Shown: positions 2,995 to 7,569 of the stretch, one piece after another
Numbering within the stretch: position 1 is the first letter of the stretch
Layout: every line of letters starts with the position of its first letter
Assembly (NCBI RefSeq): GCF_044324875.1
Contig: NZ_CP172185.1
Source of the DNA: Escherichia coli
GTDB taxonomy: Bacteria; Pseudomonadota; Gammaproteobacteria; Enterobacterales; Enterobacteriaceae
Reading direction: 5' to 3' (one strand)
DNA: 64,000 nucleotides
Program-made: the position numbers and the translations under genes
The notes under the pieces: generated by a model
Told to the model about the DNA's origin: nothing
What the model saw: the letters and a program-made list of their open reading frames with translations, nothing else
Databases searched by the model: none

Positions 2995-5900
2995 ATGAAC
3001 AGGACCAGTCCCTATTATTTTCGCCGCTCAGTACTTTCCTTATTGATATCTGCCTTAATATATGCCCAGCCCGGGATGGCGGCCTTCACTACTAATGTTA
3101 TTGGTGTGGTAAACGATGAGACTGTAGATGGCAACCAACGAGTAGATGAACGAGGTACAACAAATAACACACATATTATCAACCATGGCCGGCAGGAGGT
3201 CTATGGTGGGATATCTAATAGTAGTATTATTGAAACTGGTGGCGAGCAACTAGTATCAATCCATGCCGATATTAACGGGCAAGCTAATAATACAACCATT
3301 AATGGAGGCAGACAGTCAATTGAGTACGGAGGAATTTCTACTGGCACGATAATCGAAAGTGGCAATCAATATGTTTATAAAGGTGGTACCAGCAATGACA
3401 CGACAATTAAGGGCGGTACTTCACGCATAGAGGGGGGGACTGCAAATGGAACAATCATTGATGGTGGAGGCCAGTCAGTATCAACTCAGGGGCATGTTGA
3501 CGGTACGACGATAAATAAGTCTGGTTATCAGGACATCACGCAAGGAAGTCTGGCGACGAACACAACCATAAATGGTGGGCGACAGTATGTTGAACAGAGC
3601 ACAGTAGAAACAACCGCCATTAAAAATGGCGGTGAGCAAAGAGTATATGAGAGCCGTGCGCTGGACACGACGATTGAAGGCGGAACTCAGTCTCTGAATA
3701 GTAAGTCAACGGCAAAAAATACGCAGATCTATTCTGGTGGTACGCAAATTGTTGATAACACGAGCTCCTCGGATGTTATTGAAGTTTATTCCGGCGGCGT
3801 GCTTGATGTTAGAGGTGGTACGGCAACTAATATTACTCAGCACGATGGAGCCGCTTTAAAAGTAACGACTTACGATTTGACGGTGAGCGGTACGAATAGT
3901 GAAGGGGCATTCTCCATCCACAATAACGTGGCAGAGAATGTGTTGCTGGAAAACGGTGGTCATTTAGACATAAACGCATATGGTTCGGCAAATAAGACGA
4001 TTATTAAAGATAAAGGAACAATGTCAGTTTTAACGAATGCTAAAGCTGATGCGACCCGAATAGATAATGGCGGCGTTATGGATGTTGCCGGAAACGCGAC
4101 AAATACCATAATTAATGGTGGCACACAGAATATTAATAATCATGGTATTGCCACGGGCACCAATATCAACAGTGGAACGCAAAATATCAAGAGCGGCGGG
4201 AAAGCTGACACGACAAATATATCCTCTGGGAGCCGGCAGGTTGTTGAGAAAGATGGTACGGCAACTGGCAGCAATATTAGCGCCGGAGGCTCGCTGATTG
4301 TCTATACCGGCGGTATTGCACATGGGGTTAACCAGGAGACGGGCAGTGCTTTAGTTGCCAACACGGGCGCAGGGACTGATATCGAAGGATACAACAAGCT
4401 CTCTCACTTCACTATTACCGGAGGAGAGGCTAATTATGTTGTGCTGGAAAATACCGGCGAACTGACGGTAATGGCTAAAACCTCGGCGAAAAATACTACC
4501 ATTGATGCTGGCGGTAAGCTGATTGTCCAGAAGGAGGCTAAAACAGATAGCACCAGACTTAATAATGGTGGCGTTCTGGAGGTTCAGGACGGTGGTGAGG
4601 CTAAGCATGTTGAGCAACAATCCGGCGGCGCATTAATTGCTTCCACGACCTCCGGAACACTTATCGAAGGAACCAACAGTTATGGTGATGCTTTCTACAT
4701 CAGGAATTCAGAAGCTAAAAATGTAGTGCTGGAAAACGCTGGCTCATTAACAGTCGTCACTGGTTCCCGGGCAGTTGACACGATTATTAATGCCAACGGC
4801 AAAATGGATGTTTATGGAAAAGATGTTGGTACTGTACTTAATAGTGCTGGTACCCAAACAATATATGCCAGTGCCACTTCTGAAAAAGCAAATATCAAAG
4901 GTGGCAAGCAAACGGTATATGGTTTAGCCACTGAGGCAAATATCGAAAGTGGTGAACAAATTGTTGATGGTGGGTCAACAGACAAAACGCACATCAATGG
5001 CGGTACGCAAACCGTTCAGAATTATGGTAAGGCGATCAATACCGATATCGTCTCTGGCCTACAACAAATTATGGTAAACGGGACAGCGGAAGGTTCCATT
5101 ATTAATGGCGGTTCACAGGTAGTTAATGAGGGCGGTCTGGCTGAAAACTCGGTGCTTAATGAAGGCGGCACTCTCGATGTGCGGGAGAAAGGCAGCGCAA
5201 CGGGGATACAGCAAAGTAGCCAGGGCGCGTTGGTTGCAACCACCAGAGCGACGCGGGTCACAGGGACACGCGCTGATGGCGTCGCGTTCAGCATTGAGCA
5301 GGATGCGGCGAACAATATCCTGCTGGCAAATGGCGGCGTGTTAACCGTGGAGTCAGACACCACTTCCGCCAAAACACAGGTCAATGCGGGCGGGCGGGAG
5401 ATCGTCAAAACAAAAGCCACTGCGACAGGCACGACGCTCACCGGCGGCGAACAAATCGTCGAGGGGGTGGCGAATGAGACAACGATTAACGACGGCGGAA
5501 TACAAACAGTTTCGGCTAACGGTGAGGCAGTAAAAACAACGATTAATGAAGGCGGTACGCTGACAGTCAACGATAATGGCAAAGCGACAGATATCATCCA
5601 GAACAGCGGTGCCGCTCTCCAGACGAGCACGGCTAACGGTATTGAAATCAGCGGTACTCACCAGTACGGCACCTTTTCCATTGCCGGAAATTTAGCGACC
5701 AATGTGCTGCTGGAAAATGGCGGTAATTTATTGGTATTAGCAGGTACCGAAGCTCGCGATTCCACGGTTGGCAACGGTGGGGCAATGCAAAACCTGGGTC
5801 AGGACTTCGCCACAAAGGTTAATTCCGGTGGGCAATATACCCTCGGTCGGTCAAAAGATGAGTTTCAGGCTCTGGCCCGGGCAGAAGATCTACTGATCGC

Positions 5901-7569
5901 TGGCGGGACGGCAATCGTCTACGCAGGTACGCTGGCGGATGCATCGGTCAGTGGCGCGACAGGAAGCCTGTCGTTAATGACGCCACGGGATAATGTTACG
6001 CCAGTTAAACTTGAAGGGGTGGTCCGGATTACCGATAGCGCGACATTAACTATCGGAAATGGCGTCGATACGACGCTTGCCGACCTGACGGCTGCCAGTC
6101 GGGGCAGTGTCTGGCTTAACAGCAATAATTCCTGTGCAGGCACCAGCAACTGCGAATATAGAGTAAACAGTTTACTCCTCAACGACGGTGATGTTTATTT
6201 ATCAGCACAAACAGCAGCGCCTGCCACAACTAACGGTATCTACAATACGCTGACCACCAGTGAACTTTCCGGCAGCGGTAATTTCTACCTGCATACCAAC
6301 GTTGCAGGCTCCCGGGGCGATCAACTGGTCGTCAACAACAACGCCACTGGCAATTTTAAAATCTTTGTTCAGGATACCGGCGTCAGCCCTCAGTCTGACG
6401 ACGCGATGACGCTGGTGAAAACAGGGGGAGGGGATGCTTCGTTTACGCTGGGTAATACCGGCGGTTTCGTTGATCTTGGGACCTATGAGTATGTCCTGAA
6501 AAGCGACGGCAACAGCAACTGGAACCTGACCAATGATGTCAAACCCAACCCGGACCCCAACCCAAATCCGAAACCGGATCCAAAACCAGACCCAAAACCG
6601 GATCCGAAACCAGACCCGACTCCCGCTCCAACGCCGACACCCGTCCCGGAGAATCGCATCACGCCTTCTACAGCAGCCGTACTCAATATGGCAGCAACAT
6701 TACCGTTGGTCTTTGATGCTGAGCTAAACAGTATTCGCGAGCGGTTGAACATAATGAAAGCGAGTCCACACAACAATAATGTCTGGGGGACGACGTATAA
6801 CACCCGTAATAATGTCACCACCGATGCGGGTGCCGGGTTTGAGCAGACGCTGACCGGAATGACGGTGGGGATCGATAGCCGTAATGATATTCCTGAGGGG
6901 ATTGCGACGCTGGGCGCTTTTATGGGTTATTCCCATTCACATATTGGTTTTGATCGTGGAGGACATGGCAGTGTGGGCAGTTATTCTCTGGGGGGCTATG
7001 CCAGCTGGGAACATGAAAGTGGTTTCTATCTGGACGGTATCGTGAAGCTGAACCGCTTTGAAAGTAACGTAGCCGGTAAAATGAGCAGCGGTGGAGCCGC
7101 CAACGGCAGTTATCGCAGCAACGGGCTGGGCGGTCACATTGAAACCGGGATGCGATTTACGGATGGTAACTGGAACCTGACGCCGTATGCATCGTTAACG
7201 GGGTTCACCGCTGATAACCCCGAATATCATTTATCCAATGGCATGGAATCGAAATCAGTCGATACCCGCAGTATATATCGTGAACTGGGCGCAACGCTGA
7301 GTTACAACATGCGTCTGGGGAACGGTATGGAAATTGAGCCGTGGCTGAAGGCGGCTGTGCGCAAAGAATTTGTCGATGATAACCGGGTGAAGGTGAATAA
7401 TGACGGTAATTTCGTCAATGATTTGTCGGGCAGACGTGGAATATACCAGGCAGGTATTAAAGCCTCATTCAGCAGTACGTTAAGCGGACATCTCGGGGTG
7501 GGGTATAGCCATGGTGCCGGTGTGGAATCCCCGTGGAACGCGGTGGCTGGTGTGAACTGGTCGTTCTGA
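2995..7569 (+). CDS. ypjA: AIDA-I-type autotransporter adhesin (YpjA-like): signal peptide, long repetitive passenger domain, Pro-rich linker, C-terminal beta-barrel
   Basis: AGAGG ribosome-binding site 9 nt upstream of ATG 2995. N-terminus MNRTSPYYFRRSVLSLLISALIYAQPGMAA is an autotransporter-type signal peptide. Gly/Thr/Asn-rich degenerate repeats, KPDP-type linker, and C-terminus ending ...AGVNWSF. The ORF track start at 2866 is an upstream in-frame extension. Confidence 0.85.
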   Translation: MNRTSPYYFRRSVLSLLISALIYAQPGMAAFTTNVIGVVNDETVDGNQRVDERGTTNNTHIINHGRQEVYGGISNSSIIETGGEQLVSIHADINGQANNTTINGGRQSIEYGGISTGTIIESGNQYVYKGGTSNDTTIKGGTSRIEGGTANGTIIDGGGQSVSTQGHVDGTTINKSGYQDITQGSLATNTTINGGRQYVEQSTVETTAIKNGGEQRVYESRALDTTIEGGTQSLNSKSTAKNTQIYSGGTQIVDNTSSSDVIEVYSGGVLDVRGGTATNITQHDGAALKVTTYDLTVSGTNSEGAFSIHNNVAENVLLENGGHLDINAYGSANKTIIKDKGTMSVLTNAKADATRIDNGGVMDVAGNATNTIINGGTQNINNHGIATGTNINSGTQNIKSGGKADTTNISSGSRQVVEKDGTATGSNISAGGSLIVYTGGIAHGVNQETGSALVANTGAGTDIEGYNKLSHFTITGGEANYVVLENTGELTVMAKTSAKNTTIDAGGKLIVQKEAKTDSTRLNNGGVLEVQDGGEAKHVEQQSGGALIASTTSGTLIEGTNSYGDAFYIRNSEAKNVVLENAGSLTVVTGSRAVDTIINANGKMDVYGKDVGTVLNSAGTQTIYASATSEKANIKGGKQTVYGLATEANIESGEQIVDGGSTDKTHINGGTQTVQNYGKAINTDIVSGLQQIMVNGTAEGSIINGGSQVVNEGGLAENSVLNEGGTLDVREKGSATGIQQSSQGALVATTRATRVTGTRADGVAFSIEQDAANNILLANGGVLTVESDTTSAKTQVNAGGREIVKTKATATGTTLTGGEQIVEGVANETTINDGGIQTVSANGEAVKTTINEGGTLTVNDNGKATDIIQNSGAALQTSTANGIEISGTHQYGTFSIAGNLATNVLLENGGNLLVLAGTEARDSTVGNGGAMQNLGQDFATKVNSGGQYTLGRSKDEFQALARAEDLLIAGGTAIVYAGTLADASVSGATGSLSLMTPRDNVTPVKLEGVVRITDSATLTIGNGVDTTLADLTAASRGSVWLNSNNSCAGTSNCEYRVNSLLLNDGDVYLSAQTAAPATTNGIYNTLTTSELSGSGNFYLHTNVAGSRGDQLVVNNNATGNFKIFVQDTGVSPQSDDAMTLVKTGGGDASFTLGNTGGFVDLGTYEYVLKSDGNSNWNLTNDVKPNPDPNPNPKPDPKPDPKPDPKPDPTPAPTPTPVPENRITPSTAAVLNMAATLPLVFDAELNSIRERLNIMKASPHNNNVWGTTYNTRNNVTTDAGAGFEQTLTGMTVGIDSRNDIPEGIATLGAFMGYSHSHIGFDRGGHGSVGSYSLGGYASWEHESGFYLDGIVKLNRFESNVAGKMSSGGAANGSYRSNGLGGHIETGMRFTDGNWNLTPYASLTGFTADNPEYHLSNGMESKSVDTRSIYRELGATLSYNMRLGNGMEIEPWLKAAVRKEFVDDNRVKVNNDGNFVNDLSGRRGIYQAGIKASFSSTLSGHLGVGYSHGAGVESPWNAVAGVNWSF

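What the first reader, a model, noticed from the sequence alone, without database searches (positions are those of the whole stretch)
3100..6100. Highly repetitive beta-helix passenger domain of the autotransporter
The passenger region consists of dozens of degenerate repeats of about 19-20 residues of the form (T/N)xI(N/K)(G/S)GxQxVxxxGxAxxT. This is consistent with a long parallel beta-helix adhesin. The internal DNA repetition explains the many antisense and alternative-frame ORFs the track reports inside this gene (4030-5661), and makes the gene a likely substrate for intragenic recombination and allelic size variation.
Basis: seen in the sequence. Interest (0 to 1): 0.3.

Follow-up and report, generated by a model that had tools for sequence, protein, structure and literature searches.

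The report
YpjA/EhaD autotransporter beta-helix repeats

Summary
Window 2995-7569 (+) is ypjA/ehaD of E. coli (100% identical to an annotated RefSeq gene). Residues 56-981 (window 3160-5937) divide into 45 contiguous segments: 40 units of 16-24 aa (mean 18.5) and five double-length AIDA-type modules. The consensus is TxTIINGGTQxVxxGGxAT. Protein autocorrelation peaks at lags 18 and 19 (z 9.6 and 8.1). The beta-helix adhesin reading is supported by Pfam AIDA/Pertactin/Autotransporter hits, sequence hits to solved Ag43 and TibA passengers, and an all-beta AlphaFold model whose best PDB matches are Ag43, TibA and pertactin.

The two corollaries are not supported:
- **DNA repetition is weak.** The longest exact repeat is 13 nt, and Tandem Repeats Finder finds nothing in 3100-6100.
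- **The antisense ORFs are ordinary.** Codon-shuffled copies give as many off-frame ORFs, and 22 other long ORFs in the window have the same density per kb.
- **No allele gains or loses a repeat unit.** In 96 evenly spaced full-length rows from about 2,740 genomes, the only length changes are a 6-nt indel and 1-nt frameshifts. Intact alleles also vary by 6-12 nt in the Pro-rich linker.
- **Larger changes inactivate the gene.** They are IS truncations or microhomology deletions.

Repeat-block change shows only in the paralog ycgV, which lacks two in-register blocks (217 and 199 aa). Already known; low interest.

The parts
2995..7569 (+). ypjA/ehaD coding sequence, 1524 aa plus stop. The upstream GTG at 2866 only extends the open frame.
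   Evidence: ORF list and translation. 100% identity to NZ_CP030768.1, where CDS WP_001082377.1 is annotated 'adhesin-like autotransporter YpjA/EhaD' with the same start.
2995..3081 (+). Probable Sec signal peptide (MNRTSPYYFRRSVLSLLISALIYAQPGMA). The cleavage site is inferred.
   Evidence: Read from the translation: basic n-region, hydrophobic core, small residues at -3 and -1. No signal-peptide predictor was available.
3160..5937 (+). Beta-helix repeat array: 45 contiguous segments, about 50 coils, of 18-19 aa, consensus TxTIINGGTQxVxxGGxAT.
   Evidence: Autocorrelation, HMM matches and consensus, contiguous segmentation, regular strand pattern in the model.
3847..3966 (+). AIDA-type module 1 (GAALKVTT...NVLLENGGHL), a double-length unit that interrupts the regular coils.
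   Evidence: Regex map, DNA repeat families D4/D7, Pfam AIDA best stretch aa 298-360, pLDDT dip at model residues 260-290.
4342..4464 (+). AIDA-type module 2 (GSALVANT...YVVLENTGEL).
   Evidence: Translation, DNA family D3/D4 copy at 4425-4469, pLDDT dip at model residues 410-470. Coordinates derived from the aa 488-498 match.
4624..4749 (+). AIDA-type module 3 (GGALIAST...NVVLENAGSL).
   Evidence: pLDDT dip at model residues 510-540.
5221..5343 (+). AIDA-type module 4 (QGALVATT...NILLANGGVL).
   Evidence: pLDDT dip at model residues 700-740.
5608..5730 (+). AIDA-type module 5 (GAALQTST...NVLLENGGNL).
   Evidence: pLDDT dip at model residues 840-870.
6163..6531 (+). Pertactin-like C-terminal passenger domain (autochaperone region).
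   Evidence: Pfam PF03212, E 5.2e-45, aa 1057-1179. PDB pertactin 1dab, E 7.5e-15. EhaD and YcgV autochaperone domains are placed in clusters of the tree in PMC5767081.
6541..6648 (+). Pro-rich linker KPNPDPNPNPKPDPKPDPKPDPKPDPTPAPTPTPVP. It holds the only true DNA tandem repeat in the gene (period 12, 6543-6619) and is the site of a 6-12-nt length polymorphism.
   Evidence: Tandem Repeats Finder, family D2, allele alignment gap at 6601, coordinates.
6781..7566 (+). Translocator beta-barrel.
   Evidence: Pfam PF03797, aa 1263-1502, E 6.1e-46. TIGR01414, E 9.2e-99. BrkA barrel 3qq2, E 1.1e-23.
3354..4004 (+). Block A, 651 nt (217 aa): present in ypjA, absent from the paralog ycgV. The junction lies at the T-I-I position of two repeat units.
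   Evidence: blastn of L014 and L015 against the window. Junction display.
4590..5186 (+). Block B, 597 nt (199 aa): present in ypjA, absent from ycgV. The junction lies at L-N-x-G-G-x-L-(E/D)-V of two units.

Best explanation
The region encodes the passenger of the classical (type Va) autotransporter YpjA/EhaD.

Shown:
- Each 18-19-residue unit corresponds to one turn of the predicted all-beta solenoid.
- About 50 turns run from aa 56 to 981.
- Five modules of about 40 aa, of the kind Pfam calls AIDA, interrupt the turns and divide the rod into six regular segments.
- A pertactin-like domain, a Pro-rich linker and a beta-barrel follow.

Inferred from the solved relatives Ag43, TibA and pertactin and from general autotransporter biology:
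- The helix is a right-handed parallel beta-helix.
- The conserved G-G makes the tight turn, the I/V/L positions point into the core, and T/N/Q form ladders on the surface.
- After Sec export, the barrel inserts in the outer membrane. The passenger is threaded out C-terminus first, and the pertactin-like autochaperone nucleates stacking of the coils into a rod of roughly 240 A (50 turns at 4.8 A each).
- The rod promotes adhesion and biofilm when expressed. This function is taken from the literature.

The repeats are conserved as protein but diverged as DNA, so the array is stable. Among E. coli strains it varies by point substitution and allele mosaicism, most strongly at the N-terminal tip, and not by repeat number.
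For: Identity:
- 100% match to annotated ypjA.
- The gene sits between ypjCB and ssrA, as in the other strains examined.

Domains:
- AIDA x10, Pertactin and Autotransporter.
- TIGR04415 strand-loop-strand repeat x13 and TIGR01414.

Periodicity and consensus.

Structure:
- Sequence hits to 7ko9 (E 1.8e-32), 4kh3 Ag43, 4q1q TibA and 1dab pertactin.
- The AlphaFold model of aa 29-1180 has mean pLDDT 82 and no helix of 4 or more residues. Strands alternate every 17-19 residues, for example starting at model residues 104, 121, 139, 158, 175, 193, 211, 230.
- Foldseek best matches are Ag43 7koh (E 9e-20), 4kh3, TibA 4q1q and pertactin 1dab, followed by other beta-helix passengers.
- The five pLDDT dips coincide with the five modules.

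Stability:
- Longest exact repeat 13 nt.
- 96 sampled full-length rows show only 0 or -6 nt.
- Intact alleles are 1522-1528 aa.

Mosaicism:
- 2995-3600 is 84-88% identical to most alleles but 95% to L010, whereas 4201-7569 is 95-99% identical.
- In 2995-3900, nonsynonymous codon changes outnumber synonymous ones (47 against 36). Downstream the ratio is 26 against 53.

Function: YpjA is placed in the biofilm-forming Group 4 with Ag43, TibA and AIDA-I, and a beta-helix is predicted there (PMC9289746). YpjA is linked to adhesion and biofilm formation (PMC3796261; PMC12547504).
Against: - No experimental structure of YpjA exists (PMC9289746).
- The model's pTM is 0.41, so the relative orientation of the six segments, and whether the rod is straight or kinked, is not determined.
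- The alignment behind the model has only 16 rows, many of them close alleles.
- Handedness and coil geometry were not measured on coordinates, because the coordinates could not be read. They were inferred from DSSP and the fold matches.
- Adhesin function was not tested here. In the literature it rests on over-expression.
- The gene is inactivated or absent in about half of the complete genomes (2435 of 5426 hold at least 80% of it). That argues against an essential role.
Confidence: 0.9

Rival explanations
1. The repeat array is a recombination-prone contingency region: misaligned recombination or slippage between units changes the number of repeats, giving alleles of different size, as in phase- or size-variable surface proteins.
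For: - The paralog ycgV lacks two in-frame blocks, of 651 and 597 nt, whose junctions are in register with the repeat.
- The E. albertii relative P0011 (53% identity, 1475 aa) differs by indels of 18, 19 and 35 aa, among others.
- Both sporadic deletions use short matches involving the repeat-encoded GGT GG / TCACAGG words.
Against: - Tandem Repeats Finder finds no tandem repeat in 3100-6100.
- The longest exact direct repeat is 13 nt, within the codon-shuffle range. That is below the roughly 23-27 bp of identity needed for efficient RecA-dependent exchange in E. coli (established knowledge, not tested here).
- 0 of 96 sampled full-length rows differ by a repeat unit.
- The indels of intact alleles are 6 nt, or lie in the linker.
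- The 145-nt and 1314-nt deletions are not in repeat register. The first shifts the frame, and the second removes the autochaperone, the linker and part of the barrel.
Confidence: 0.08
2. The repeats serve mainly as acceptor sites for O-heptosylation by an Aah/TibC-type glycosyltransferase, as in AIDA-I and TibA. Adhesion would then depend on that modification.
For: - NCBIfam TIGR04415 'O_hepto_targRPT' matches 13 stretches (E 2.1e-71).
- The TibC-glycosylated TibA fragment 4q1q is both a sequence and a fold match.
Against: - No glycosyltransferase gene is adjacent. The upstream gene is ypjCB (DUF5507 + DUF5508, no PDB relative) and the downstream gene is ssrA. In the aah-aidA and tibC-tibA systems the transferase gene lies next to the adhesin gene (established knowledge).
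- The repeat model describes the fold unit and does not show modification.
- The rest of the genome is not available.
Confidence: 0.1
3. One or more of the antisense ORFs inside the gene, above all 5022-5630 (-), 202 aa, is a real overlapping gene.
For: - The ORF is intact in all 7 alleles compared.
- The open stretch in its frame is longer than in 96% of codon shuffles (P 0.037).
- Its synonymous/nonsynonymous counts equal those of the sense frame.
Against: - Its third codon positions coincide with those of the sense frame, so the synonymous/nonsynonymous test cannot discriminate (read from the coordinates).
- There is no Shine-Dalgarno-like sequence before its GTG.
- The product is a P/V/S/L/A-rich mirror image of the repeats.
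- The frame is closed after 136 codons in the ycgV paralog.
- Nested ORFs of 204 and 232 aa occur in other genes of the window.
- RefSeq does not annotate it.
Confidence: 0.02

Closest known systems
YpjA (E. coli K-12 b2647) / EhaD (EHEC O157:H7)
   Same: Same gene. Nucleotide identity is 93.7-94.7% to K-12-type alleles and 94-95% to O157:H7 alleles over the full length. The locus, the domain order and the length (1524 aa against 1526 and 1528) are the same.
   Different: This allele has a distinct N-terminal passenger segment: 2995-3600 is only 84-88% identical to most other alleles. It also has a shorter Pro-rich linker.
YcgV (paralog at the ymgJ-minE locus)
   Same: 85-97% DNA identity, including about 380 nt upstream and a 39-codon small ORF. 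The repeats, autochaperone and barrel are the same.
   Different: It lacks two in-register repeat blocks (217 and 199 aa), including modules 1 and 3. It is reduced to a remnant of about 774 nt in most of the genomes sampled.
Antigen 43 / Cah (self-associating autotransporters; PDB 4kh3, 7koh, 7ko9, 7kob)
   Same: AIDA-type repeats and a beta-helix passenger. These are the best sequence and fold matches. YpjA falls in the same phylogenetic Group 4 (PMC9289746).
   Different: The NCBIfam Ag43 equivalog scores 355 bits against a cut-off of 1200. The YpjA passenger is about twice as long and has five AIDA-type modules. Self-association has not been shown.
AIDA-I and TibA
   Same: 19-aa imperfect repeats of the same consensus type, a pertactin-like junction domain and a beta-barrel.
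   Different: The AIDA-I model scores 274 bits against a cut-off of 1200. No adjacent heptosyltransferase gene is present.
Pertactin (P.69, 1dab)
   Same: The C-terminal passenger domain PF03212 and the right-handed beta-helix fold.
   Different: Pertactin lacks the regular 19-aa AIDA repeats and is much shorter.

Membership tests
Classical (type Va) autotransporter | C-terminal 12-stranded translocator beta-barrel (PF03797) | tested here: met
   PF03797, E 6.1e-46, aa 1263-1502. TIGR01414, E 9.2e-99. BrkA barrel 3qq2, E 1.1e-23.
Classical (type Va) autotransporter | N-terminal Sec signal peptide | tested here: inconclusive
   The sequence MNRTSPYYFRRSVLSLLISALIYAQPGMA looks like one. No predictor was run.
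Classical (type Va) autotransporter | Beta-helical passenger with a C-terminal autochaperone | tested here: met
   All-beta model with Ag43, TibA and pertactin as best folds. PF03212, E 5.2e-45.
AIDA-I-type adhesin group (Group 4 / SAAT-like) | AIDA repeats (PF16168) built from imperfect units of about 19 aa | tested here: met
   PF16168, 10 stretches, E 4e-142. Period 18-19 aa.
AIDA-I-type adhesin group (Group 4 / SAAT-like) | Self-association, aggregation or biofilm phenotype | not testable with these tools
   Literature only: biofilm and adhesion on expression (PMC9289746; PMC3796261).
AIDA-I proper | Reaches the NCBIfam NF033176 cut-off | tested here: not met
   274 bits against 1200.
Ag43/Cah proper | Reaches the NCBIfam NF033177 cut-off | tested here: not met
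   355.5 bits against 1200.
Heptosylated adhesin systems (aah-aidA, tibC-tibA) | Adjacent autotransporter-adhesin heptosyltransferase gene | tested here: not met
   The upstream ORFs are ypjCB (DUF5507/DUF5508), a 122-aa ORF without Pfam hits, and a recombinase remnant. ssrA lies downstream.
YpjA/EhaD orthologue | Near-identity to annotated ypjA, at the ypjCB ... ssrA locus | tested here: met
   100% to NZ_CP030768.1 ypjA. 2435 genomes hold at least 80% of the gene at 90-100% identity. Same neighbours.
Repeat-number-variable (contingency) surface protein genes | Long, near-identical tandem DNA repeats | tested here: not met
   Tandem Repeats Finder finds none in 3100-6100. The longest exact repeat is 13 nt. 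Repeat-family copies are 60-87% identical.
Repeat-number-variable (contingency) surface protein genes | Repeat-number polymorphism among strains | tested here: not met
   0 of 96 sampled full-length rows. Seven aligned alleles. This is a sample, not a census.

The most novel reading that the evidence does not exclude
The least conventional reading the evidence allows has two parts.

First, the array may have been shaped to be recombination-proof. The protein repeats are kept, but their DNA has diverged until no two units share more than 13 nt. That would explain why the length of about 50 coils is fixed across thousands of genomes, while diversity is concentrated at the distal N-terminal tip through allele mosaicism.

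Second, the five AIDA-type modules may act as hinges that give a multiply kinked rod, rather than the single bend seen in Ag43.

Neither part is shown. The first could equally be simple age and drift of the repeats. The second rests only on dips in model confidence.
Probability: 0.2. Interest if true: 0.3.

Novelty: already known. Interest (0 to 1): 0.1.

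Why it matters
It matters little beyond correct annotation. The gene, its family, its 19-aa repeats and the predicted beta-helix are all in the literature.

Three clarifications are useful:
- Protein-level repetition here does not imply DNA-level repetition, so nested antisense ORFs and recombination should not be attributed to it.
- Strain-to-strain variation in ypjA is presence/absence, inactivation (IS elements and microhomology deletions, including a 1314-nt deletion seen in about 10-12% of sampled rows), N-terminal sequence mosaicism and a Pro-rich linker polymorphism. It is not variation in repeat number.
- Typing schemes that score ypjA as present or absent will mix intact genes with common pseudogene alleles and with the near-identical paralog ycgV, which RefSeq sometimes also labels ypjA.

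Tried and rejected
- **Tandem Repeats Finder and seed-based repeat search on 2500-8000**. These found only degenerate copies, 60-87% identical, and the linker repeat. I rejected the idea of a DNA tandem array.
- **Codon-shuffle and neighbour-gene controls for the antisense ORFs**. I rejected repetition as their cause.
- **Synonymous/nonsynonymous counts on the 202-aa antisense ORF**. The test is uninformative because the two frames share wobble positions.
- **Exact-sequence cluster look-up of three YpjA alleles to get length distributions**. None was in the collection.
- **The protein database search**. It returned no full-length YpjA clusters; the best hits are partial or truncated. It could not serve as an allele-length census. 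It did reveal proteins with large 'deletions' that I first took for ypjA size variants. Their contigs showed that the two I looked up (P0005, P0009) are the ycgV paralog at the ymgJ-minE locus, so they are not ypjA alleles. P0007 and P0010 share the same missing blocks, and I assume they are ycgV too.
- **An adjacent glycosyltransferase.** I looked for one and found none.
- **Model coordinates.** These could not be read by script, so coil rise, handedness and bend angles were not measured.

Full report
**What is there.** The window holds one long ORF, 2866-7569 on the + strand. A megablast against complete E. coli genomes gives a 100% match to NZ_CP030768.1. There the CDS starting at the ATG equivalent to window 2995 is annotated 'adhesin-like autotransporter YpjA/EhaD'. 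The product is 1524 aa. Pfam finds AIDA (PF16168, 10 stretches, E 4e-142), Pertactin (aa 1057-1179) and the Autotransporter beta-domain (aa 1263-1502). NCBIfam adds TIGR04415 'strand-loop-strand repeat' (13 stretches) and the barrel model TIGR01414. The equivalog models for Ag43 and AIDA-I score far below their cut-offs. The gene lies between ypjCB (607-2061) and ssrA (tmRNA, 7730-8092, minus strand).

**Checking the observation.** Within the finding's own range (aa 36-1036), BLOSUM62 autocorrelation compared with 200 shuffles peaks at lags 18 (z 9.6) and 19 (z 8.1), with harmonics at 36 and 54. Lag 20 is at background. I cut the sequence by hand before each T/N-x-(T)-I motif and verified that the pieces are contiguous. 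There are 45 segments from aa 56 to 981 (window 3160-5937). Forty are single units (17 of 19 aa, 13 of 18 aa, range 16-24, mean 18.5) and five are double units of 36-38 aa. An iterated HMM gives the consensus TTTIINGGTQIVEKGGTAT, with G7, G8, Q10, V12, G16 and A18 the most conserved positions.

Five modules of about 40 aa, of the form G-x-A-L...T...G-x-N..G-x-F-x-I...A-x-N-V-x-L-E-N-G-G-x-L, interrupt the regular coils. They lie at window 3847-3966, 4342-4464, 4624-4749, 5221-5343 and 5608-5730. They are the most DNA-similar parts of the array (families D3, D4, D7; 64-87% identity).

**Is it a beta-helix?** Sequence search of the PDB hits an 'AidA-I family adhesin' (7ko9, E 1.8e-32), Ag43 (4kh3, 7koh, 7kob), TibA (4q1q), pertactin (1dab) and the BrkA barrel (3qq2). 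I aligned the passenger (aa 29-1180) with alleles and relatives and predicted its structure:
- Mean pLDDT is 82 and pTM is 0.41.
- There is no helix of 4 or more residues.
- Strands recur every 17-19 residues.
- Foldseek against the PDB ranks Ag43, TibA and pertactin first (E 9e-20 to 1e-9), followed by other beta-helical passengers and pectate-lyase-like beta-helices.
- The five dips in confidence (model residues about 260-290, 410-470, 510-540, 700-740, 840-870; add 28 for protein numbering) coincide with the five modules. The six regular segments are therefore confident, but their mutual orientation is not.

A published review also predicts a full-length beta-helix for YpjA and notes that no structure exists (PMC9289746). 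The main interpretation is supported. Each unit is one coil, giving about 50 coils. At 4.8 A per coil (textbook value) the rod would be roughly 240 A long.

**DNA-level repetition.**
- Tandem Repeats Finder reports nothing in 3100-6100.
- The longest exact direct repeat there is 13 nt, against 11.6 +/- 1.2 (maximum 19) in codon-order shuffles.
- Shared 8-, 10- and 12-mers are 2-8 times more frequent than in the shuffles.
- Identity at lags 54 and 57 nt rises only to 0.34 and 0.32.

The repeats are detectable in DNA but are far too diverged to align with each other over more than a dozen bases.

**Antisense ORFs.** On the minus strand they are 4030-4323, 4351-4620, 5353-5661 and 5022-5630, along with others. 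Shuffling the order of the gene's codons gives 11.7 +/- 2.5 off-frame ORFs of at least 60 aa, against 13 observed. The longest is 147 +/- 39 aa, against 202 (P 0.09). The density, 2.76 per kb, equals that inside 22 other long ORFs of the same window (2.59 +/- 1.01). Those ORFs include nested ORFs of 204 and 232 aa. The gene has many nested ORFs because it is long, not because it is repetitive.

The 202-aa ORF shares wobble positions with the sense frame, so conservation tests cannot discriminate. It lacks a ribosome-binding site, encodes a P/V/S/L-rich mirror image of the repeats, and is closed after 136 codons in the paralog.

**Allelic size variation.** Of 5,426 complete genomes, 2,435 hold at least 80% of the gene. 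Two evenly spaced samples of the ranking were read:
- 46 full-length rows for window 3100-6100.
- 50 full-length rows for window 3350-5950.

In both, the span of the match in the genome record differs from the query by 0 or -6 nt. A few rows show -1 nt frameshifts. None differs by a repeat unit. The two samples may overlap, and strains are clonally related, so this is a sample and not a census.

Seven intact alleles are 1522-1528 aa. Their only indels are 6 nt at 3968-3973 and 6-12 nt at 6601, in the Pro-rich linker, which is the one real tandem DNA repeat in the gene.

Larger changes all inactivate the gene:
- IS1 and IS3 insertions with loss of the distal part.
- A 145-nt, frame-shifting deletion between GGTTCACAGG (5110) and GGGTCACAGG (5255).
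- A 1314-nt deletion from 5771 to 7085 across a match of about 12 nt (GCAGCGGTGG). It removes the end of the passenger, the autochaperone, the linker and part of the barrel, and is annotated as a pseudogene. Rows ending at that breakpoint make up 6 of 60 rows and 7 of 60 rows.

What does vary is sequence. Window 2995-3600 is only 84-88% identical to most alleles but 95% identical to one of them, whereas 4201-7569 is 95-99% identical. In 2995-3900 nonsynonymous codon changes outnumber synonymous ones. That is a mosaic, tip-variable pattern.

**A historical footprint of repeat-block change.** The protein search returned E. coli proteins about 92% identical to YpjA in aligned parts but lacking 217 and 199 aa. 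The contigs of the two I looked up (P0005, P0009) show that these are not ypjA alleles. They are the paralog ycgV, between ymgJ and minE. ycgV shares 85-97% DNA identity with ypjA, including about 380 nt upstream (window 2616-2995) and a 39-codon ORF. The two missing blocks are 651 and 597 nt, both in frame. Their junctions fall at the same position of two repeat units: T-I-I for block A and L-N-x-G-G-x-L-(E/D)-V for block B. In-register loss or gain of repeat blocks has therefore happened in this family, but between paralogs and not among present-day ypjA alleles. In most of the genomes sampled, ycgV itself is a remnant of about 774 nt.

**Comparison with what is known, and verdict.** This is YpjA/EhaD, an AIDA-I-type (Group 4) classical autotransporter linked to adhesion and biofilm formation (PMC9289746, PMC3796261, PMC12547504). 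Its autochaperone has been catalogued (PMC5767081). It is not AIDA-I or Ag43 proper. No heptosyltransferase gene is adjacent. Nothing here is new in kind. The finding is a correct recognition of a known feature, with two over-extended corollaries.

Noticed in passing
window 6541-6648: The Pro-rich linker (KPNPDPNPNPKPDP...) holds the only true tandem DNA repeat in the gene (period 12, 6543-6619). It accounts for 6-12-nt length differences among intact alleles. The window allele has the shortest form seen.
   Followed up: yes
window 2995-3900: The N-terminal (distal) passenger is the most variable part among alleles: 84-88% nt identity against 95-99% downstream. Similarity is mosaic (one allele is 95% identical here but not downstream), and nonsynonymous codon changes outnumber synonymous ones. 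This suggests inter-allelic recombination and/or diversifying selection at the tip.
   Followed up: partly
window 2616-7579; loci L014, L015 (ycgV at ymgJ-minE): ycgV is a close paralog (85-97% DNA identity), including the upstream leader. It differs by two in-register repeat blocks. RefSeq sometimes labels it ypjA too. In most of the genomes sampled it is a remnant of about 774 nt.
   Followed up: partly
window 2811-2930 (+): A 39-codon ORF (MPHSYAEYHHFIMMSLMSGEHNTLALSLQDESPGLVPVG) lies just upstream of ypjA. It is annotated as a hypothetical protein (in other strains 'ATPase'), and a small ORF sits at the same relative position upstream of ycgV. Its function is unknown; it may be only part of the duplicated leader.
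   Followed up: no
window 5771-7097: A common pseudogene allele carries a 1314-nt deletion between two matches of about 12 nt (GCAGCGGTGG). Rows ending at that breakpoint make up about 10-12% of the sampled rows, for example in O103 strain ML775 and strain CE0026a.
   Followed up: yes
window 7730-8092 (-): ssrA (tmRNA, tag ANDENYALAA) lies 160 nt downstream of the ypjA stop, with smpB-sized and ratA-sized ORFs beyond it (named by analogy with L002). In this window no island separates ssrA and ypjA. In other strains island genes (cbtA, yeeU, radC; integrases) follow ypjA instead.
   Followed up: partly
window 607-2061 (+): ypjCB (484 aa, DUF5507 + DUF5508) is intact here, has a low G+C of 0.34 and has no relative in the PDB. 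It is a pseudogene (internal stops or frameshifts) in several other strains. A recombinase gene remnant lies between it and ypjA (about 2421-2579, by transfer from L001).
   Followed up: partly
window 5022-5630 (-): A 202-aa antisense ORF shares wobble positions with the ypjA frame and is intact in all 7 alleles compared. It has no ribosome-binding site and encodes a Pro/Val/Ser-rich mirror of the repeats. It is most likely a by-product.
   Followed up: partly
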